IMG/VR virus record: IMGVR_UViG_3300034139_000007 | Location: 16,821 to 80,820 of that record | Source: a virus | DNA length: 64,000 nucleotides | Strand: one strand, 5' to 3' | In this document: positions 1,912-8,794 of the stretch, one piece after another | How the letters are laid out: the number at the start of each line of letters is the position of its first letter | Numbering within the stretch: the first letter of the stretch is position 1 | Program-made: the position numbers and the translations under genes | Notes under the pieces: model-generated | What the model was told of the DNA's origin: nothing | What the model saw: only the letters and a program-made list of their open reading frames with translations | The model's database searches: none

Positions 1912-2339
1912 TGGCCAATCCGTGGATGATCCTGGGGGCGTCCCTGCTGCTTGCCGCAGCAGGGTCCGCTGCCGGTTACAAGGTCAGGGACTTCCAGGCC
2001 ACTGAGCGGCGGGCTGCATGCGCAGCAAGCATCAATGACCTGACCCTGAAGAACTGCCCGCAGGAGATCGTCACCGCATTCGACGCGGTGAAGGGCCAGC
2101 TGGCGATCACTCAAATCGAATACCGGGACCGGACGGTCACGGTCATGGCTCAAGGCAGCACCGAGGACCGGGCTGCTCGACGGGCGCTCTCGGACCAGAT
2201 CGCGGCTCTGAGCAACGTGGAGAAGACGTATGCGTGTGCTGCTAGTCCTGCTTTCGAGCTTCGCCGTAGCCAGCTGTGGGCCGATGCTGCAGCGGAGGGT
2301 GTCTATCCCGGACCCAGTGGGGCCGACGAAGCTCCCTAG
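1911..2339 (+). CDS. i-spanin (Rz-like)
   Basis: N-terminal TM anchor, helical periplasmic domain, follows endolysin, overlapped by a lipoprotein ORF. Confidence 0.7.
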   Translation: MANPWMILGASLLLAAAGSAAGYKVRDFQATERRAACAASINDLTLKNCPQEIVTAFDAVKGQLAITQIEYRDRTVTVMAQGSTEDRAARRALSDQIAALSNVEKTYACAASPAFELRRSQLWADAAAEGVYPGPSGADEAP

Positions 2340-2571
2340 CGAGCTGTTCGAGTGCGACGCCGAACCCCTTCCCGTAGCGGCGGGGGTCTCTGATCCTGTC
2401 GCTGCGGTCAATGAAACGGAGCGTACCGGTGCCGGACGCGATTGCCGACGGCAGCTCCGCAGGGTGTGTCTGACCCTGTCGGCCATTGATCAGGTAACAG
2501 GAGAATGCCCCGATGCGCGCAACTTCCGTCGGCCCGCCCAACCGTCTGCGCGAACCCCCATACAGGAGTAG
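2230..2571 (+). CDS. o-spanin (Rz1-like lipoprotein)
   Basis: MRVLLVLLSSFAVAS-C lipobox, Pro-rich, overlaps 3' end of the i-spanin in another frame. Confidence 0.75.
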   Translation: MRVLLVLLSSFAVASCGPMLQRRVSIPDPVGPTKLPSELFECDAEPLPVAAGVSDPVAAVNETERTGAGRDCRRQLRRVCLTLSAIDQVTGECPDARNFRRPAQPSARTPIQE

Positions 2572-2618
2572 CTAGAGCCCCTGAACTAGCTCATCGACCT
2601 ACGGGCCTCGGCGGATTT

Positions 2619-2631
2619 TATCTACTGGATA
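2619..2631. promoter_or_regulatory. palindromic motif B, copy 2
   Basis: TATCTACTGGATA between lysis cassette and fibre cassette. Confidence 0.7.
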
Positions 2632-2711
2632 ACATTCACCTTGTAGGCCTACTCCGGGGAAACGATATTCCAGCCTGACTGGCGTTCGCCCTTCTCCGGT
2701 CACTTCCGTGG

Positions 2712-2746
2712 AACCCCCCGTCCGTGCCCCCGGGCGGGGGGTTTTG
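2712..2746 (+). terminator. probable Rho-independent terminator
   Basis: CCCCCCGTCCG...CGGGCGGGGGG stem followed by TTTT. Confidence 0.6.
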
Positions 2747-2762
2747 CAAATGGACCAGAAGC

Positions 2763-3098
2763 ATGCCGATCAAGATTTTCCGCGGTGAGACCCTGACGAC
2801 TGCCATGGCGGCGACGGTCGGCGACATCACGGGTGCGACCATCGTAGCGACGATGAAGAAGGCGCGGGTCGCCAAGGTAGCCCCACCCGCCAGCACCCCC
2901 GTCGCCGCGACGCTCAACGCCACCCCTGTGGCCAACGTCGCCAACACCGGCAAGCCGGGGTGGCACCTCGAAATCCCCGCCGCACAGACCAACGGCCTCC
3001 CGCTCGGCGACTATGTCGCCCAGGCGAAGATCACGCTGCCCAGCGGCGTCGTGGACTACAGCCCCCTCATGGACATCCTGATCGAGGAGCGCATCTGA
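2763..3098 (+). CDS. putative virion structural protein (beta-rich, Ig/BppU-like), first gene of fibre cassette
   Basis: MPIKIFRGETL...TNGLPLGDYVAQAKITLP pattern resembles phage BppU-like N-terminal domains; TGATG coupling to next gene. Confidence 0.45.
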   Translation: MPIKIFRGETLTTAMAATVGDITGATIVATMKKARVAKVAPPASTPVAATLNATPVANVANTGKPGWHLEIPAAQTNGLPLGDYVAQAKITLPSGVVDYSPLMDILIEERI

Positions 3099-3316
3099 TG
3101 TTGGTGCTCCAGTGGGTCGAGCTGCCGAAGCTGGGCCTGGCTTGGGTCGGCCCAACTGCACCCGCCCCTTCAACGCCTCTAGGCACCCCACCGGCCATCA
3201 ACGTGGTGATCGGGGCACAGGGCCGAGACGGTCAACAAGGTCTCCGGGGGCCGCCCGGCGACGGCGCTGCCGACCCCGGTGACATCACTCTCATCTTCGA
3301 AAACCAACTGCTGTAA
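3098..3316 (+). CDS. short collagen-like (GXY) structural protein
   Basis: GAQGRDGQQGLRGPPGDG triplets; C-terminal DPGDITLIFENQLL. Confidence 0.6.
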   Translation: MLVLQWVELPKLGLAWVGPTAPAPSTPLGTPPAINVVIGAQGRDGQQGLRGPPGDGAADPGDITLIFENQLL

Positions 3317-3328
3317 GGAGCTACTTCC

Positions 3329-3853
3329 ATGTCATTTGCGACCCGTCTGTCGGACCTCGCCACTCGGGTTGCAACCGAGTGTAAGAGCCTGCGCACGCTG
3401 CTGAACGGCAACGCCGCCGACAACAGCGCCCTCATCACCACGGCCAAGTCCAACCTGGTCGCGGCCATCAACGAGGTGAAGACCCAGGCCAACTCCCTCG
3501 CCGCCTCTGGCGGGGCCACCATCAACGATGCGTCCAGCAACTCGACGACCCAGACCTACTCGATCAACAAGATCCTGCAGTCGCTGACCGATCTGAGTAC
3601 TTCCATCAAGAGCGAGATCCTGGGCGGGGTCGGCCTCGACGGCGACACCCTGGCTGAGCTGAAGGCCTTCATCGACAGCAGCGCGGGCGACATCACCGCC
3701 CTGGTGGCCAACCGTCTGCGCTTCGATGCTCCTCAGACGCTGACCACGCCCCAGAAGGTGCAGGTCAACGAGAATGCCGGGTCGCTGTCGCTCGTCCAGT
3801 CGGGCGATCCCGAGACCAACCTGGTCAACATCTTCCAGACCGGCCTGGCGTAA
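3329..3853 (+). CDS. fibre/filament-like virion protein
   Basis: AAGGAG SD; LITTAKSNLVAAINEV and DTLAEL motifs of phage fibre proteins. Confidence 0.6.
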   Translation: MSFATRLSDLATRVATECKSLRTLLNGNAADNSALITTAKSNLVAAINEVKTQANSLAASGGATINDASSNSTTQTYSINKILQSLTDLSTSIKSEILGGVGLDGDTLAELKAFIDSSAGDITALVANRLRFDAPQTLTTPQKVQVNENAGSLSLVQSGDPETNLVNIFQTGLA

Positions 3854-3856
3854 TCC

Positions 3857-4855
3857 ATGAGCCTGGCCAGCCGCCTCACCGATGTGGTCGGAGCGATCCG
3901 CGATAAGTTCAATACTATCGCGCCTCGCCTGCTGGCCAATGGCGGTAGCGTGGGCCAGGTCTACACCCACAACGGCAGCGGCCATGGCTGGGCCGCCCCG
4001 TCTGGCGGTGGAGGCGGCGGTGGATCTGCCTGTCAGGTAGACATTTTCGACACCCCTGGTTCGGGGCAGACCTGGACGAAGCCAGCTGGGGCCAAGTGGG
4101 TCGAAGTCACCCTTATCGCTGGCGGCGGCGGCGGCGGTTCGGGCCGCAAGGGTCCTGCAGGGACGGCACGTTCCGGTGGCGGCGGCGGTGCTGGTGGTGC
4201 TTGCCAAGTTGTCACTCTGTCGGCTGACGCGCTCGGTGCCACCGAGAACGTCACCGTGGGTGCCGGTGGCGCGGGCGGTGCCTCGCAGACGAACAACAAT
4301 GCCTCGGGGTCGAATGGTGGGTCGGGCGGGCTCAGTCGCTTCGCCAACATCTCCACCAACTCATCGTCGGCGGGCAACGCGGGTTCCGGTTCGGCAGCAG
4401 GGGCGGCGAACGCATCGACAGGCCACATCTTTAACGGCAGCAATGGTGGCGCGTCCAGCATTACGGCGAACGCCGCCAACGTCTCTCATCCGGGGACGCA
4501 AGCTGCGAGCGGAGGGGCTGGGGGAGGCTGTCTCTCAACAGCGAACGCCTCATTCGCTGGCGGCGGCGCTCTTGTCCCACTCATTCAGACCGGCGGAAAC
4601 TCCGCTGCAGGCGGCGCGGGGGGCACCGGAACAAATGGCGGCTCTATCGCCACCCGCACCCCTGGCATGCCCATCGGTGGCCAGGGTGGCGGCGGTGGCG
4701 GTTCAGGGGCGACTGTTAACGGCGGGACCGGCGGCGCTGGTCAGTGGCCTGGCGGTGGTGGCGGCGGCGGTGGTGCTGCTACCGATAGCCTTGGAAACTC
4801 TGGTGCTGGTGGAGCGGGCGCAGGTGGCGTCGTGATTGTGGTGACGTACTTCTGA
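3857..4855 (+). CDS. glycine-rich fibre/adhesin protein
   Basis: TWTKPAGAKWVEVTLIAGGGGGG...GGAGAGGVVIVVTY glycine-rich domain typical of phage fibre tips. Confidence 0.75.
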   Translation: MSLASRLTDVVGAIRDKFNTIAPRLLANGGSVGQVYTHNGSGHGWAAPSGGGGGGGSACQVDIFDTPGSGQTWTKPAGAKWVEVTLIAGGGGGGSGRKGPAGTARSGGGGGAGGACQVVTLSADALGATENVTVGAGGAGGASQTNNNASGSNGGSGGLSRFANISTNSSSAGNAGSGSAAGAANASTGHIFNGSNGGASSITANAANVSHPGTQAASGGAGGGCLSTANASFAGGGALVPLIQTGGNSAAGGAGGTGTNGGSIATRTPGMPIGGQGGGGGGSGATVNGGTGGAGQWPGGGGGGGGAATDSLGNSGAGGAGAGGVVIVVTYF

Positions 4856-5163
4856 TGAACAAGCTCTTCACGCAGGCCGCCTGCCTGACCGCCGAGATGA
4901 TCGGCAAGCCGATCACGTTCGTCATCAACGTCGCCATCATCCTGCTGTGGGCGGTGAGCGGTCCGCTCTTCCAGTTCAGCGACACCTGGCAGCTGGTGGT
5001 GAACACCGGCACCACAGTCTTCACCTACCTGATGTTGTTCCTGCTGCAGCACACTCAGAACCGCGACGGCAAGGCGCTCCAGACGAAGCTGGACGAGATC
5101 CTTCGGGCCATCCCGCAGGCCGACGATGGCTTGCGCGGCATCGAAAAAGACCCCAGAGCCTAA
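4855..5163 (+). CDS. low-affinity iron permease family protein (Fet4-like)
   Basis: WAVSGPLFQFSDTWQLVVNTGTTVFTYLMLFLLQHTQNRDGKALQTKLDEILRA matches the family signature as I recall it; TGATG coupling to upstream gene. Confidence 0.85.
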   Translation: MNKLFTQAACLTAEMIGKPITFVINVAIILLWAVSGPLFQFSDTWQLVVNTGTTVFTYLMLFLLQHTQNRDGKALQTKLDEILRAIPQADDGLRGIEKDPRA

Positions 5164-5211
5164 GCTCCGGGGCCTTCCCGTCGTCGACATCCCGCCCGGG
5201 GTGGGTGTCTA

Positions 5212-6342
5212 CTACTCCACCCGACGCTGAGCGTCAAACCGATCCCAGACAGCACCGTAGGTGCCGCCCGATGCGCCCTTGGAATACTCGGTGGCCCGAG
5301 CCTCGAAGAAGTTCGCGTGCTCCTGGCCGGAGAGCAGCGCCTGGAGCCACAGCAGCGGGTGCTCGGTGATACCGAACGGGTCGTCCAGCCCCAGCTGGCG
5401 CATGCGCCAGCCAGCGATGAAGCGGATGTACTGCTTGATGTCGTCGGCGGTCATACCCTCCACGGCACCCAGTTCGAAGGCCAGGTCGATGAAGGCGTCT
5501 TCCTGCTCGATCACCTTCAGGCAGGTCTTCAGGATGTCAGCCTTCACCAGCGGGGTCAGAGCGCCCGTCTCGTTGGCGAACTCGTGGAACAGGCGGATGA
5601 TCCCCTCGCAGTGGATGCTCTCGTCACGCACCGACCACGAGACGATCTGGCCCATGCCCTTCATCTTGTTGAAGCGCGGGAAGTTCATCAGCATGGCGAA
5701 GCTGGCGAACAGCTGCAGACCTTCAGCGAACCCGCCGAACATGGCCAGGGTGCGCAGGATGTTGGCGTCGGTGTCGACCGTGAAGGTGTCCCAGTGATCG
5801 ACCTTGGCCTTCATGGCCTCGTATTCAGCGAAGGCCGCGTACTCGCTGTCGGGCATGCCGACGGTCTCCAGGACCAGCGAGTAAGCGTCGATGTGGACCG
5901 GCTCCCGACCGGCGAAGCCGGACAGCATCATGCAGATCTCGGTTGGCTTGAACAGGCCACCGAGGCGGGTCATGTAGTTGTTGCTGACCTCCTCGTCGGA
6001 CTTCACGAACAGGCGGAAGATCTGCGTTAGCAGGTTTTTCTCACCCGGCGTCAGGTTGCGCTCCCAGTCCTTGACGTCCTCGCCCAGCGGCACCTCCTTG
6101 GGGAGCCAGTGGACTTCCTCATGCACCTTCCACAGGTCGTAGGCCCAGGGGTAGCGCATGGGCTTGAAGGGACCGGGGCGACGCAGGCTGACCGGGATCA
6201 GCTCGTGGATGGCCAGCAGGGCCTCCTGCTTCACGGCGGTCATGGTCGGCGAGCTTTCGCCAGCGATGTGCGGCATCACCACCGTATCGCGCACGGTGCC
6301 CTCGGGGACGAGATCGTAGTTGGGTGTGACGTCTACTGACAT
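5212..6342 (-). CDS. nrdB: ribonucleotide reductase class Ia beta subunit
   Basis: YPWAY, HWLPKEVPL, EPVHIDAYS, EGLQLFASF, WSVRDESIH, NFFEARATEY; start uncertain (6342 or 6243). Confidence 0.95.
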   Translation of the reverse strand: MSVDVTPNYDLVPEGTVRDTVVMPHIAGESSPTMTAVKQEALLAIHELIPVSLRRPGPFKPMRYPWAYDLWKVHEEVHWLPKEVPLGEDVKDWERNLTPGEKNLLTQIFRLFVKSDEEVSNNYMTRLGGLFKPTEICMMLSGFAGREPVHIDAYSLVLETVGMPDSEYAAFAEYEAMKAKVDHWDTFTVDTDANILRTLAMFGGFAEGLQLFASFAMLMNFPRFNKMKGMGQIVSWSVRDESIHCEGIIRLFHEFANETGALTPLVKADILKTCLKVIEQEDAFIDLAFELGAVEGMTADDIKQYIRFIAGWRMRQLGLDDPFGITEHPLLWLQALLSGQEHANFFEARATEYSKGASGGTYGAVWDRFDAQRRVE

Positions 6343-8165
6343 GCGAGGCACTCGTCGTACTGGGGTTGCTGATCAGGGGTGGCCATGGTTGGGACCGGGG
6401 TGGCATCAGACCCGGCGTGGGCGGCGCGCTTCGTCGAGCGGGAGCGCAGGTAGTAGAGCGACTTGGCACCGCGCTCCCATGCGGTGAAGTGCAGCATGTG
6501 CAGGTCCCACTTGTCCACGGTGCCTGGCAGGAAGATGTTCACCGACTGGCCCTGGCAGATGTAGGGCGTCCGGTCGATCATGTGTTCGACGACCCACCGC
6601 TGGTCCAGCTCGAAGCTGGTTCGGAACACCTTCTTCTGATCTTCGTTCAGGTAGTCGAGATGCTGAACCGATCCGTCGGCTTCCAGGATGCTATCCCACT
6701 GCTCCTGGAGCCAGCCCTTGCGATGGGCACCGAAGCCAGTGGGGGCAATCTGGGTCTTCCAGACCGACTTCAGGAGCGCGTCCAAGTACGGGTTCTTGAC
6801 CACGAACGAGCCGGAGAGGGTCTTATGAACGTAGATGTTCGAAGGGATAGGTTCGATACCCGCCGAGGTCCCACCGGCGATGATCGAGATCGACGCCGTC
6901 GGGGCGACGGCCAGTTTATGGCTGAACCGTTCCATCACCTGGTCATCAGCCGCATCCAGGCAGGGGCCGCGCTCGACCGCCAGCTTCTGGCTGGCCGCGT
7001 CAGCTTCGCGCCGTAGCATACGGAACATCCGCATGTTCCACGACTTGGCCATCGGTCCCTCGAAGGCCAGTCCCTGCTTCTGCAAGAACGAGTGGAAGCC
7101 CATCAGGCCCAGGCCGACCGAGCGTTCACGCTTGGCCGAGTAGACCGCTGCAGCCATGGCTGGCGGGGCGCGGGTGATGAAGTCCTCCAGGACGTTGTCC
7201 AGGAACCGCATGATGTCTTCGATGAAGTAGGGGTCGTCCTGCCACTCCAGGAAGGTCTCGGCGTTGACCGACGACAGGCAGCACACGGCTGTCCGGTCCG
7301 TGCCCAGGTGGTCCTTGCCGCTGTGCAGCAGGATCTCGGTGCATAGGTTCGACTGCTGGACCTTCAGGCCAACCTTGCGCTGGAACTCCGGCATGGCCTC
7401 GTTCGCCCGGTCCACGAAGACCAGATAGGGCTCGCCGGTCTGGAGGCGCGTGTCGAGGATCTTCTGCCACAGCGCGCGGGCATCCACGGTCTTCATGACC
7501 ATGCCGCTCTTGGGCGACGTCAGGGCGAAGCTGGTGCCATCACGGACCGCGACCATGAAGGCGTCGGTGATGTTCAGACCATGGTGCAGGTTAGGCGCAC
7601 GTCGGTTGGCATCCCCGGTCGGCTTCCTGATCTCCAGGAACTCTTCGACCTCGGGGTGGTGGATGTCGAGGTAGACGGCGGCAGAGCCCCGTCGCAAGGA
7701 CCCCTGCGCGATGGCCAGGGTCAGACTATCCATGACGCGGATGAAGGGAATGATGCCGGACGTCTGGCCCGCGCGCCCGACTTCCTCACCGATGGAGCGC
7801 ACACCGCCCCAGTAGGTGCCGATGCCGCCGCCGTTGGAGGCCAGCGCGATGTTCTCGTTCCAGATCGACTGGATGCCGTCGAGGCTGTCGCCAACGGCGT
7901 TCAGGAAGCAGGAGATGGGCAGGCCACGGTCGGCACCACCATTGGACAGGACCGGTGTGGCCGGCATGAACCAGAGCTTCGACATGTAGTCGTAGACGCG
8001 CTGGGCATGGGCCTCGTCATCGGAGAACGCAGCGGCGACGCGCGCGAACATGTCCTGATAGGTCTCACTGGGGAGCAGGTAGCGGTCGTCGAGGGTCTTC
8101 TTGCCGAATGCGGTGAGGAAGGCGTCGCGCTCCGGGCACAGGACGACAGCCGAGGGGTCGGTCAT
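6333..8165 (-). CDS. nrdA: ribonucleotide reductase class Ia alpha subunit (no ATP cone)
   Basis: PATPVLSN, LPISCF, QGSLRRG, QSNLCTEI, APTASIS, KSLYYLRS, C-terminal CLAC. Confidence 0.97.
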   Translation of the reverse strand: MTDPSAVVLCPERDAFLTAFGKKTLDDRYLLPSETYQDMFARVAAAFSDDEAHAQRVYDYMSKLWFMPATPVLSNGGADRGLPISCFLNAVGDSLDGIQSIWNENIALASNGGGIGTYWGGVRSIGEEVGRAGQTSGIIPFIRVMDSLTLAIAQGSLRRGSAAVYLDIHHPEVEEFLEIRKPTGDANRRAPNLHHGLNITDAFMVAVRDGTSFALTSPKSGMVMKTVDARALWQKILDTRLQTGEPYLVFVDRANEAMPEFQRKVGLKVQQSNLCTEILLHSGKDHLGTDRTAVCCLSSVNAETFLEWQDDPYFIEDIMRFLDNVLEDFITRAPPAMAAAVYSAKRERSVGLGLMGFHSFLQKQGLAFEGPMAKSWNMRMFRMLRREADAASQKLAVERGPCLDAADDQVMERFSHKLAVAPTASISIIAGGTSAGIEPIPSNIYVHKTLSGSFVVKNPYLDALLKSVWKTQIAPTGFGAHRKGWLQEQWDSILEADGSVQHLDYLNEDQKKVFRTSFELDQRWVVEHMIDRTPYICQGQSVNIFLPGTVDKWDLHMLHFTAWERGAKSLYYLRSRSTKRAAHAGSDATPVPTMATPDQQPQYDECLACQ

Positions 8166-8193
8166 GGGTAATCTCTCCAGGATGGGACGACGA

Positions 8194-8225
8194 CCCTAGC
8201 GGTCGTTGGTCGACGACCGCTAGGG
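8194..8225. other. stem-loop in nrdA leader
   Basis: CCCTAGCGGTCGT-TGGTCG-ACGACCGCTAGGG inverted repeat between motif B copy 3 and the nrdA SD. Confidence 0.6.
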
Positions 8226-8237
8226 GGCAAAAGCGAG

Positions 8238-8250
8238 TATCTACTGGACG
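8238..8250. promoter_or_regulatory. palindromic motif B, copy 3
   Basis: TATCTACTGGACG (1 mismatch) upstream of nrdA. Confidence 0.65.
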
Positions 8251-8257
8251 TTCTGAT

Positions 8258-8794
8258 TTAGCCGACGAAACCCGTCATCATCGCGTGCAGAGTGTCGACC
8301 GATCCGTTGTTCACGATGGTCACGTTGACGTCCAGCGTGTCGATCAGCACTTCGGAGGAATGCTCCTCCCCGGTGCCGACCGGGCGGTCGGGTCGTTCGA
8401 TGCGGATGACCCGCCCACCGGCGTCCTGGATGGCCTGCACCTCGTTGGGGAAGCGGACGTCGGTGATGACCGCCTGCTGGACCTGCTTGGCCTTCTCCAG
8501 AGCGATGTCCACCCAGAAGCTGTCAGCCATCTGCTGGCGGCCCCACTCGGTCCCGAGACGCTGCAGGGCATAGCGCGGCGTCTGGCCAGCCAGGAGCGGC
8601 GTGGGGACCTCCTTCAGGTCCCCTTCCAGCATCCGATCGATCAACTCGTCGTCTGCCCCCTGGTATCGCAGCAGTGTGGCCAGCATCAGCTTCAGCGGGG
8701 TGGCGAAGGCCAGCTGCTCATAGCCGACCAGCGCGTCTGCTGCCGTGTTCTTGCCCGCCCTCTTGCGCCCGGCGACCCCGATAATCTTGGTCAT
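8258..8794 (-). CDS. deoxynucleoside monophosphate kinase
   Basis: IIGVAGRKRAGKNT P-loop, AFATPLK, TPRYALQRLGTEWGR, ITDVRFPNE, HSSE. Confidence 0.92.
   Translation of the reverse strand: MTKIIGVAGRKRAGKNTAADALVGYEQLAFATPLKLMLATLLRYQGADDELIDRMLEGDLKEVPTPLLAGQTPRYALQRLGTEWGRQQMADSFWVDIALEKAKQVQQAVITDVRFPNEVQAIQDAGGRVIRIERPDRPVGTGEEHSSEVLIDTLDVNVTIVNNGSVDTLHAMMTGFVG

What the first reader, a model, noticed from the sequence alone, without database searches (positions are those of the whole stretch)
2763..4855. Four-gene cassette with plug-and-socket termini suggesting a head-to-tail polymerising virion filament
Seen: protein A (3098-3316, collagen-like) ends DPGDITLIFENQLL and protein B (3329-3853) ends DPETNLVNIFQTGLA, a shared C-terminal motif. 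Protein B begins MSFATRLSDLATRV and protein C (3857-4855, Gly-rich) begins MSLASRLTDVVGAI, a shared N-terminal motif. So A has only the C-motif, B has both, and C has only the N-motif plus an adhesin-like domain. B has a strong SD (AAGGAG). The cassette is separate from the main structural operon and starts with an Ig-like protein (2763-3098). Inference: if the N-motif binds the C-motif, the architecture is base - initiator A - (B)n - capping adhesin C, a pilus-like filament of variable length. Established: some alphaproteobacterial phages such as phiCbK carry long head filaments that engage flagella. I cannot show that this cassette encodes one.
Basis: partly seen in the sequence, partly recalled or inferred. 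Interest (0 to 1): 0.75.

Follow-up and report, generated by a model that had tools for sequence, protein, structure and literature searches.

The report
Three-piece phage side fibre cassette
These four genes most likely build a side fibre on the phage tail from a collar protein and three separate pieces that appear to snap together through matching end motifs, a widespread but undescribed design; nothing shows that the middle piece polymerises into a long filament.

Summary
The four ORFs and all quoted end sequences are at the stated coordinates.

The same layout recurs widely. About 110 loci show it, from phages of Alpha-, Beta- and Gammaproteobacteria and Actinobacteria, and from prophages. 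The layout is an Ig-like protein, a small protein A ending in a C-motif, protein B with both the N-motif and the C-motif, and protein C with the N-motif plus a variable tip.

The Ig-like protein is a distant homologue of LtfC/p132. That is the 12-subunit collar that holds the lateral tail fibres of T5 and DT57C (hhalign probability 90.6%, E 1.3e-6; best structural matches).

This phage has a lambda-type tail tip. The best reading is therefore a lateral tail fibre made of collar, adaptor A, shaft B and a glycine-rich tip C, joined without covalent links at two related junctions.

The polymer idea, (B)n, is neither shown nor excluded. Several points count against it:
- No locus has more than one B gene.
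- Longer fibres arise from repeats inserted inside B.
- A-type and B-type C-motifs differ consistently.

The link to the phiCbK head filament fails, because phiCbK has no relative of B.

One class of lambda-like prophages carries B and C without A or the collar. This remains unexplained.

No multimer fold could be run, so the junction is inferred.

The parts
2714..2745 (+). G+C-rich hairpin followed by TTTT, 17 nt before the first gene of the cassette. It is terminator-like and marks the boundary with the lysis genes.
   Evidence: Read directly. The simple terminator scan did not list it, because it has only four T.
2763..3098 (+). Ig-like beta-sandwich protein (111 aa), a distant homologue of LtfC/p132, the collar protein of T5-like phages. 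Proposed anchor ring on the tail.
   Evidence: Model pLDDT 84.9, all beta. Best PDB matches are the T5 tail tip 7qg9_J (Z 8.9) and the DT57C baseplate 8hqz_T (Z 8.7). hhalign of family alignment A2 against Gostya9 LtfC: probability 90.6%, E 1.3e-6, 105 columns. Pfam LtfC hits 4 of 17 family members.
3098..3316 (+). Protein A (72 aa), proposed adaptor. It has two Val-rich strand-like stretches, six G-X-Y triplets and a C-motif at 3272-3313. Its start overlaps the stop of the Ig-like gene (TGATG). SD GAGGAG at 3084-3089.
   Evidence: A-like proteins ending in the C-motif precede B in 27 loci or more. A is fused to the Ig-like domain in L007 and others.
3329..3853 (+). Protein B (174 aa), proposed trimeric shaft. 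N-motif at 3329-3403, C-motif at 3806-3850, SD AAGGAG at 3315-3320.
   Evidence: phrog_4757, E 2e-35. More than 560 homologues of similar length. No Pfam, NCBIfam or PDB relative. The monomer model is mostly helical, with helix 3-60 and a C-terminal helix 161-173, pLDDT 69.
3857..4855 (+). Protein C (332 aa), proposed tip. N-motif at 3857-3931, a GG..GQV unit, and a glycine-rich domain at about 4067-4744.
   Evidence: Pfam Gly_rich_2, E 2e-9. Weak match to Bxb1 gp33 'tail wing brush' 9d93, E 0.0028. In 23 of 25 library hits the N-motif lies at residues 1-40 of the protein.

Best explanation
The cassette encodes an accessory lateral (side) tail fibre of the Ur-lambda/T5 kind, built from four proteins.

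1. The Ig-like protein forms a collar on the tail near the tube/tip junction, as LtfC/p132 does. Homology is shown; the ring and its position are inferred.
2. Protein A docks on that collar with its N-terminal strands. It trimerises through a short collagen-like run and presents its C-motif (inferred).
3. The N-terminal coiled-coil helix of the B trimer binds the C-motif of A. The N-terminal helix of the C trimer binds the related C-motif of B. The result is one A, one B and one C trimer in line (inferred from gene order, co-variation and exchangeable anchors).
4. The glycine-rich domain of C is the distal, surface-binding tip (inferred from its relatives).

The two junctions are old duplicates of one connector. 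Tips and anchors can therefore be exchanged between phages as separate genes.
For: **The base protein is a collar homologue.**
- hhalign against LtfC: probability 90.6%, E 1.3e-6 over 105 columns.
- The best structural matches are the T5 and DT57C collar chains.
- Pfam LtfC and BppU_N hit other family members.
- T5 has the same gene order: collar gene, then fibre gene.

**Solved precedents.**
- In DT57C, 12 LtfC subunits hold LtfA trimers. The N-terminal strands of LtfA extend the LtfC sheets and are followed by a trimeric coiled coil (PMC10713586).
- In Ur-lambda the collar domain is fused to the fibre through a linker (PMC12617516).
- Both arrangements occur here. The Ig-like protein and A are split in the window and fused in L007.

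**The phage itself.** It has a lambda-type tail tip: tape measure, L, K and a J-like protein of 2,200 aa.

**Fixed order across about 110 loci**.

**Other anchors also end in the C-motif and are followed by B-like and C-like proteins.**
- A P2 gpH-type N-terminal domain, PF12571, E 5e-23, in L032.
- An Mtd_N domain in phage Musetta.

**The ends co-vary.**
- Type I and type II ends are never mixed in a cassette.
- C-motif identity between A and B is 31% in the same cassette and 21% across cassettes.
- N-motif identity between B and C is 39% in the same cassette and 31% across cassettes.
- Both differences give p<2e-4 by permutation. They persist within type I.

**The system is self-contained.** In this genome only A, B and C carry the motifs.

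**The tip.** Its domain is related to the Bxb1 'tail wing brush' (PMC12646305).
Against: - No physical or predicted contact between the N-motif and the C-motif was obtained.
- The C-motif helix in the B model has low confidence.
- About 65 loci from lambda-like prophages have B and C between the large terminase and gpW/portal. A sample of them has no A, no C-motif protein and no LtfC-like protein within 20 kb. The N-end of B can therefore work without a C-motif partner.
- In Musetta and CcrSC the cassette lies next to capsid genes. A head location cannot be excluded for some carriers.
- The match of the Ig-like fold to LtfC stands only slightly above generic Ig matches (Z 8.9 against 7.5-8).
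- The window's own protein does not hit Pfam LtfC.
- The co-variation statistics are not corrected for shared ancestry.
Confidence: 0.5

Rival explanations
1. Same parts, but B joins head to tail with itself. A nucleates the chain, C caps it, and the fibre has variable length.
For: - B is the only protein with both motifs.
- The two junctions are homologous and change flavour together.
- In type II cassettes the N-motifs of B and C are almost the same. A B-to-B contact is therefore conceivable.
- No natural B-C or A-B fusion exists. The free ends seem to matter.
Against: - None of 109 loci has a second B gene.
- Fibre length is varied genetically, by repeats inside B, in proteins of up to 881 aa that keep the same two ends.
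- A-type and B-type C-motifs are each conserved across cassettes and differ from each other: DLTLIFENxL against TNFVxxFEAGL. This suggests two specific junctions.
- A has as good an SD as B.
- The known collar-anchored fibres are of defined length (PMC10713586, PMC12617516).
Confidence: 0.1
2. The C-motif is mainly a C-terminal trimerisation tag (foldon-like) for A and B. The N-motif is a docking helix. B and C are then two alternative or branching fibres that both dock at one site on A or on the collar, rather than a linear chain.
For: - A's short collagen-like run would need a registration domain next to it.
- The N-motifs of B and C are very alike.
- DT57C has a branched fibre, with LtfB hanging on LtfA (PMC10713586).
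- Class 2 prophages show that the B N-end can work without any C-motif protein.
Against: - C always follows B directly, in 92 of 109 loci, even where A is absent. C therefore goes with B, not with A.
- No cassette with A followed directly by C was found.
- C-type and B-type N-motifs differ consistently after about residue 14.
Confidence: 0.2
3. The fibre sits on the capsid as a head fibre, as seen on phage 7-7-1, and not on the tail.
For: - The cassette follows the major capsid gene in Musetta and CcrSC.
- The B-C pair lies between the terminase and portal genes in lambda-like prophages.
- In 7-7-1 the capsid fibres rest on an Ig-type link protein, and their proteins are unknown (PMC12796354).
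Against: - The base protein is homologous to a tail collar protein.
- In L032 the anchor is a baseplate-type fibre N-domain.
- In many loci the cassette follows J-like tail tip genes.
- In this phage it lies after the tail and lysis genes.
- phiCbK lacks B.
Confidence: 0.1

Closest known systems
Lateral tail fibre attachment of T5-like phages: LtfC/p132 collar with LtfA/LtfB or pb1 (PMC10713586)
   Same: - A small beta-sandwich collar protein homologous to the Ig-like protein here.
- It is encoded directly before the fibre genes.
- The fibre starts with short strands and then a trimeric coil.
- The fibre is accessory and built from more than one protein (LtfA plus LtfB).
   Different: - T5 pb1 is one long chain with a C-terminal chaperone domain.
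- Here the fibre is cut into A, B and C, with conserved N-motif/C-motif ends.
- B has no detectable relative among solved structures.
Side tail fibre Stf of Ur-lambda (PMC12617516)
   Same: - A lambda-type tail tip.
- A 12-fold collar of beta domains, linked by short linkers to trimeric fibres.
- The fused Ig+A forms, such as L007, copy this arrangement.
   Different: - In lambda the collar domain and the whole fibre are one polypeptide.
- No sequence similarity to Stf was tested or seen.
Tail wing of mycobacteriophage Bxb1: gp30 base, gp31 arm, gp33 brush (PMC12646305, PMC13243192; PDB 9d93)
   Same: - A dispensable three-part appendage.
- Its outer part is a glycine-rich polyproline-II bundle, weakly similar to protein C.
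   Different: - The Bxb1 base and arm show no similarity to the Ig-like protein, A or B.
- They lack the N-motif and C-motif.
T4 long tail fibre: gp34, gp35, gp36, gp37 (own knowledge)
   Same: A fibre assembled end to end from separate trimeric proteins encoded by adjacent genes.
   Different: Unrelated sequences. It has a monomeric hinge protein and chaperone-dependent assembly, and no repeated junction motif is known. This comparison is from memory and was not tested here.
Head filament of phiCbK (PMC3556154)
   Same: A host from the same bacterial order, and a flexible glycine-rich appendage.
   Different: - phiCbK has no B relative.
- Its candidate filament protein is a single protein of 2,799 aa.

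Membership tests
T5/DT57C-type lateral tail fibre module (LtfC collar plus fibre) | LtfC-like beta-sandwich collar protein | tested here: met
   hhalign of A2 against Gostya9 LtfC: probability 90.6%, E 1.3e-6, 105 columns. Best VIA matches are 7qg9_J (Z 8.9) and 8hqz_T (Z 8.7). Pfam PF23926 hits 4 of 17 family members but not the window's own protein.
T5/DT57C-type lateral tail fibre module (LtfC collar plus fibre) | Collar gene lies directly upstream of the fibre gene | tested here: met
   T5 order is pb4, collar, ltf. Window order is Ig-like, A, B, C.
T5/DT57C-type lateral tail fibre module (LtfC collar plus fibre) | Fibre N-end with two short strands that extend the collar sheets, followed by a trimeric coil | tested here: inconclusive
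   A and its relatives start with two Val-rich stretches, like the first 40 residues of LtfA. No model or complex was made.
T5/DT57C-type lateral tail fibre module (LtfC collar plus fibre) | Twelve-subunit ring around the tail tip | not testable with these tools
   Needs cryo-EM or a multimer prediction.
T5/DT57C-type lateral tail fibre module (LtfC collar plus fibre) | Single long fibre chain (pb1 or LtfA) | tested here: not met
   The fibre is split into A (72 aa), B (174 aa) and C (332 aa). No fused forms were found.
phiCbK-type head filament | Relatives of the cassette present in phiCbK | tested here: not met
   The A1 profile gives no match in JX100813 at E<=0.01. CcrSC and phiM12 match at 2e-58 and 4e-61.
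phiCbK-type head filament | Giant glycine-rich filament protein of the gp76 kind | tested here: not met
   C has 332 aa and a Gly_rich_2 domain. gp76 has 2,799 aa (PMC3556154).
Bxb1 tail wing | Glycine-rich 'brush' domain | tested here: inconclusive
   C against 9d93 gp33: E 0.0028 over 128 residues of biased composition.
Bxb1 tail wing | Relatives of base gp30 and arm gp31 | tested here: not met
   Profile and single-sequence searches of the PDB with B, A1 and the Ig-like protein found no Bxb1 chain. The ends of gp30-gp33 lack the motifs.
Self-polymerising filament (pilus-like) | Subunit whose two ends bind each other, present in many copies per filament | not testable with these tools
   Only indirect evidence exists: one B gene per locus, and length set by internal repeats.
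Collagen-like phage fibre proteins | Collagen triple-helix repeats | tested here: inconclusive
   A has six G-X-Y triplets and no Pfam Collagen hit. The L026 anchor has a true collagen domain, E 1.7e-22. phiM12 A has only two triplets.

The most novel reading that the evidence does not exclude
The N-motif and C-motif form a general, self-compatible snap connector for trimeric fibre segments. It is used by phages of at least two bacterial phyla. With it, anchors, shafts and tips encoded as separate genes can be combined freely. B can also add onto B, giving fibres of variable length that are capped by C.
Probability: 0.12. Interest if true: 0.8.

Novelty: new variant of a known kind. Interest (0 to 1): 0.55.

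Why it matters
Collar-anchored side fibres are known from T5 and Ur-lambda as single long chains. Here the same kind of appendage seems to be split into exchangeable genes with two related end-to-end connectors.

The cassette is found in hundreds of phages and prophages: sipho-, myo- and jumbo phages, of Proteobacteria and Actinobacteria. None of its parts has a curated family name or a solved structure.

If the connector is real, three things follow:
- It explains how these phages swap receptor-binding tips.
- It gives a handle for annotating many 'hypothetical' late genes.
- It offers a natural plug-in junction for engineering host range in laboratory phages.

It also gives a concrete test: stoichiometry of A, B and C, and a multimer fold of the junctions.

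Tried and rejected
- **Sequence searches of the PDB.** B, the B family profile and the Ig-like protein gave nothing useful.
- **NCBIfam.** Nothing for any of the four proteins.
- **tblastn of the Ig-like protein against phages.** No match. Homology appeared only through structure and profile comparison.
- **Search for natural fusions.** Three queries were used: longer B relatives, a read-through B-C junction against 1.84 billion representatives, and a read-through A-B junction. None was found. The one apparent junction hit, P0168, is low-complexity sequence.
- **Search for cassettes with A followed directly by C.** None was found. Most hits were the unrelated GGTTGQVLxK repeat.
- **Read-through of the B stop.** B and C are in one frame, three bases apart. 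The same frame occurs in only about a third of cassettes, which is the chance level, so this was rejected.
- **phiCbK head filament.** Rejected.
- **Bxb1 wing as a homologue of the whole cassette.** Rejected, except for the glycine-rich tip.
- **Promoter scan.** No sigma-70-like site.
- **Earlier findings.** One look-up by sequence failed and then returned nothing.
Full report
**What is there.** The window is the last 64 kb of an 80,820-bp phage genome. All four ORFs of the finding exist as described.
- The Ig-like protein (2763-3098, 111 aa) starts 17 nt after a G+C-rich hairpin with a T-run.
- A (3098-3316, 72 aa) overlaps the stop of the Ig-like gene (TGATG). It has the SD GAGGAG.
- B (3329-3853, 174 aa) has the SD AAGGAG.
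- C (3857-4855, 332 aa) starts three bases after the stop of B.
- A ends in ..DPGDITLIFENQLL and B in ..DPETNLVNIFQTGLA. B begins MSFATRLSDLATRV and C begins MSLASRLTDVVGAI.

Upstream on the same strand lie several late genes:
- a lambda-type tail module, with a tape measure of 1,886 aa, Phage_tail_L, an NlpC/P60 protein and a J-like protein of 2,200 aa;
- a GH108 endolysin.

Downstream lies a small Iron_permease-family gene, followed by convergent ribonucleotide reductase genes.

**The pattern is conserved, not a local coincidence.** B belongs to phrog_4757 (E 2e-35). It has more than 560 relatives of similar length, none with a Pfam, NCBIfam or PDB relative.
- tblastn finds B in 111 phage records. 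These include Sinorhizobium T4-like phages (phiM12), Caulobacter jumbo siphophages (CcrSC), and Pseudomonas, Ralstonia, Gordonia and Microbacterium phages.
- A genome scan finds B in 260 bacterial species genomes.

In annotated phages and 29 viral contigs the neighbours repeat the window's layout:
- an Ig-like protein of 100-130 aa;
- a short protein ending in the C-motif;
- B with both motifs;
- a protein that starts with the N-motif and continues into a variable C-terminal part of 77-776 aa.

Counts over the 109 loci with a full B:

| Feature | Loci |
|---|---|
| N-motif at the start of B | 103 |
| C-motif at the end of B | 97 |
| Next ORF starts with the N-motif within 40 nt | 92 |
| Second B-like gene | 0 |

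In the window's own genome the motif HMMs hit only A, B and C.

**Two flavours that never mix.**
- In type I cassettes A ends ..DLTLIFENxL and B ends ..TNFVxxFEAGL. The N-motifs read ..LATRIATExK.. in B and ..LAxAIRDKxN.. in C.
- In type II cassettes A ends ..DPLAYYILAK and B ends ..DLAAAYTTAK. Both N-motifs read ..ALAQAIGADVKAL.

Figures for the 27 non-redundant cassettes:

| Comparison | Same cassette | Different cassettes | Permutation p |
|---|---|---|---|
| C-motif, A against B | 31% | 21% | <2e-4 |
| N-motif, B against C | 39% | 31% | <2e-4 |

- The effect persists within type I alone (p about 0.003 and 0.001).
- Each role also keeps its own signature across cassettes: A with A 35%, B with B 43%, and the B N-motif with itself 47%.
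- These tests do not correct for shared descent. However, the C proteins have unrelated C-terminal parts, so their matching N-ends are not simply inherited along with the rest of the protein.

**What the base is.** The Ig-like protein folds with confidence into a beta sandwich (pLDDT 84.9).
- Its best PDB matches are a 139-residue chain of the T5 tail tip (7qg9_J, Z 8.9) and of the DT57C baseplate (8hqz_T, Z 8.7). These stand only slightly above generic Ig domains.
- Among predicted viral structures it matches the 107-aa phiM12 cassette protein, labelled 'BppU N-terminal domain'. It also matches the N-termini of several long minor tail proteins.
- Pfam LtfC (PF23926) hits 4 of 17 family members, and BppU_N hits 2.
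- A profile of the family aligns to LtfC of the T5-like phage Gostya9 with probability 90.6% and E 1.3e-6 over 105 columns. The shared ending ..G.V.V..gVT is part of that alignment.

How LtfC and related collars work is known from solved structures:
- LtfC (T5 p132) is needed for fibre attachment. It forms a 12-subunit ring around the tail tip. LtfA trimers are held by two short N-terminal strands that extend the LtfC sheets, and a trimeric coiled coil follows (PMC10713586).
- In T5 the collar gene lies directly before the fibre gene.
- In Ur-lambda the equivalent collar domain is the N-terminus of Stf itself. It is joined by about 10 residues to a trimeric bundle (PMC12617516).

Both arrangements occur in this family. 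The window has a separate Ig-like protein and A. L007 and others have one fused protein that carries the Ig domain, the two strand-like stretches, the collagen-like run and the C-motif.

**Exchangeable anchors.**
- In L032, downstream of two ORFs whose N-termini look like P2 baseplate proteins gpJ and gpI (by eye, no family search), a 295-aa protein carries the P2 gpH-type N-terminal domain (PF12571, E 5e-23). It ends ..NFVHVFDTALLEGRD.
- The next ORF in L032 is B-like, starts with an N-motif-like helix and ends ..DFVALFESSLA... The ORF after that starts ..LEQRIEDVVVRIAQEF.
- In Microbacterium phage Musetta the protein before B has an Mtd_N domain and ends in the C-motif.

The C-motif therefore sits at the end of several kinds of fibre-attachment protein, and B always follows. 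This is the strongest comparative argument that the C-motif of one protein meets the N-motif of the next.

**Shaft and tip.**
- The B monomer model is helical. It has a 58-residue N-terminal helix with a heptad-like pattern and a low-confidence C-terminal helix over the C-motif.
- Longer relatives (306-881 aa) have the same first and last residues. Extra 'phage tail repeat' units are inserted between them. Two relatives of 246 aa have an internal duplication.
- C has a Gly_rich_2 domain (E 2e-9). It matches weakly the 'tail wing brush' gp33 of mycobacteriophage Bxb1, a polyproline-II bundle at the end of a dispensable three-part appendage (PMC12646305, PMC13243192).
- The Bxb1 base and arm are not related to the proteins here.

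**Polymer or defined chain.**

Points for a B polymer:
- B alone has both ends.
- The two junctions are homologous and change together.
- No natural fusions exist.

Points against it:
- There is one B gene everywhere.
- Length is set by repeats inside B.
- A-type and B-type ends differ consistently.
- The translation signals of A and B are equally good.
- The known collar-held fibres have a defined length.

I put the polymer at about 10%.

**Head or tail.** phiCbK, the model for head filaments, has no B relative, whereas CcrSC and phiM12 do. Its proposed filament protein is the 2,799-aa gp76 (PMC3556154). The collar homology, the baseplate-type anchor of L032 and the frequent position after J-like genes all point to the tail. 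Even so, the cassette follows the capsid gene in Musetta and CcrSC.

**An unexplained class.** About 65 of the 80 genome loci are lambda-like prophages of Beta- and Gammaproteobacteria.
- In them a 163-aa B and a 130-aa C lie between the large terminase and gpW/portal.
- In a sample there is no C-motif protein and no LtfC-like protein within 20 kb.
- There the N-end of B (..RIESLVIRVAQEFNDVR) must dock on something else.
- This weakens the claim that the N-motif always needs a C-motif. The B-to-C junction is universal; the A-to-B junction is not.

**Verdict.**
- The cassette is a new, segmented variant of the collar-anchored side tail fibre.
- What is shown: the sequences, their recurrence, the co-variation, the LtfC homology and the domain identities.
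- What is inferred: the ring, the contacts, the stoichiometry and the function in adsorption.

Noticed in passing
L055 (Thauera prophage) 2019-8330; also L050-L115: In lambda-like prophages of Beta- and Gammaproteobacteria, and in one Nitrospira genome, a B-C pair sits between the large terminase and gpW/portal. No collar protein and no C-motif protein lies nearby. Its attachment site on the particle is unknown.
   Followed up: partly
window 4855-5163: A gene of the low-affinity iron permease family (Pfam E 3e-36) starts at the last base of protein C's stop codon. It is the last gene of the plus-strand block.
   Followed up: no
L127-L145 (viral contigs): The unit P.GGTTGQVL.K.S..DY...W follows the N-motif in many C proteins. 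It is also a common tandem repeat inside long fibre proteins of unrelated phages.
   Followed up: no
P0061, P0092 (B relatives of 246 aa): An internal duplication of the ..L.TTAK.NLVAAINEV..IDDA...WSI.KI.. module. The B shaft is built from a repeatable unit.
   Followed up: no
L146 794-6454 (genome 794-6454): The tape measure protein of 1,886 aa carries a phage tail lysozyme domain. The J-like protein has 2,200 aa.
   Followed up: no
L035 13614-14935 (Bxb1 genes 31-33): Bxb1 has a 106-aa beta protein, a 63-aa protein ending ..SPDPDTIYVVVE, and the glycine-rich gp33 starting MSLKVGGLDVV. The sizes and ends faintly recall the Ig-like protein, A and C without a B. No significant similarity was found.
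   Followed up: partly
window 3098, 3329, 3857: A, B and C are all in the same reading frame, separated by TAA plus four codons and TAA plus one codon. This is not conserved in relatives.
   Followed up: yes
L121 6056-6480 (T5 NC_005859): In this T5 record the collar gene is annotated as two short ORFs (T5.135 and T5.136). The DT57C paper attributes this to a frameshift error in the sequence.
   Followed up: no
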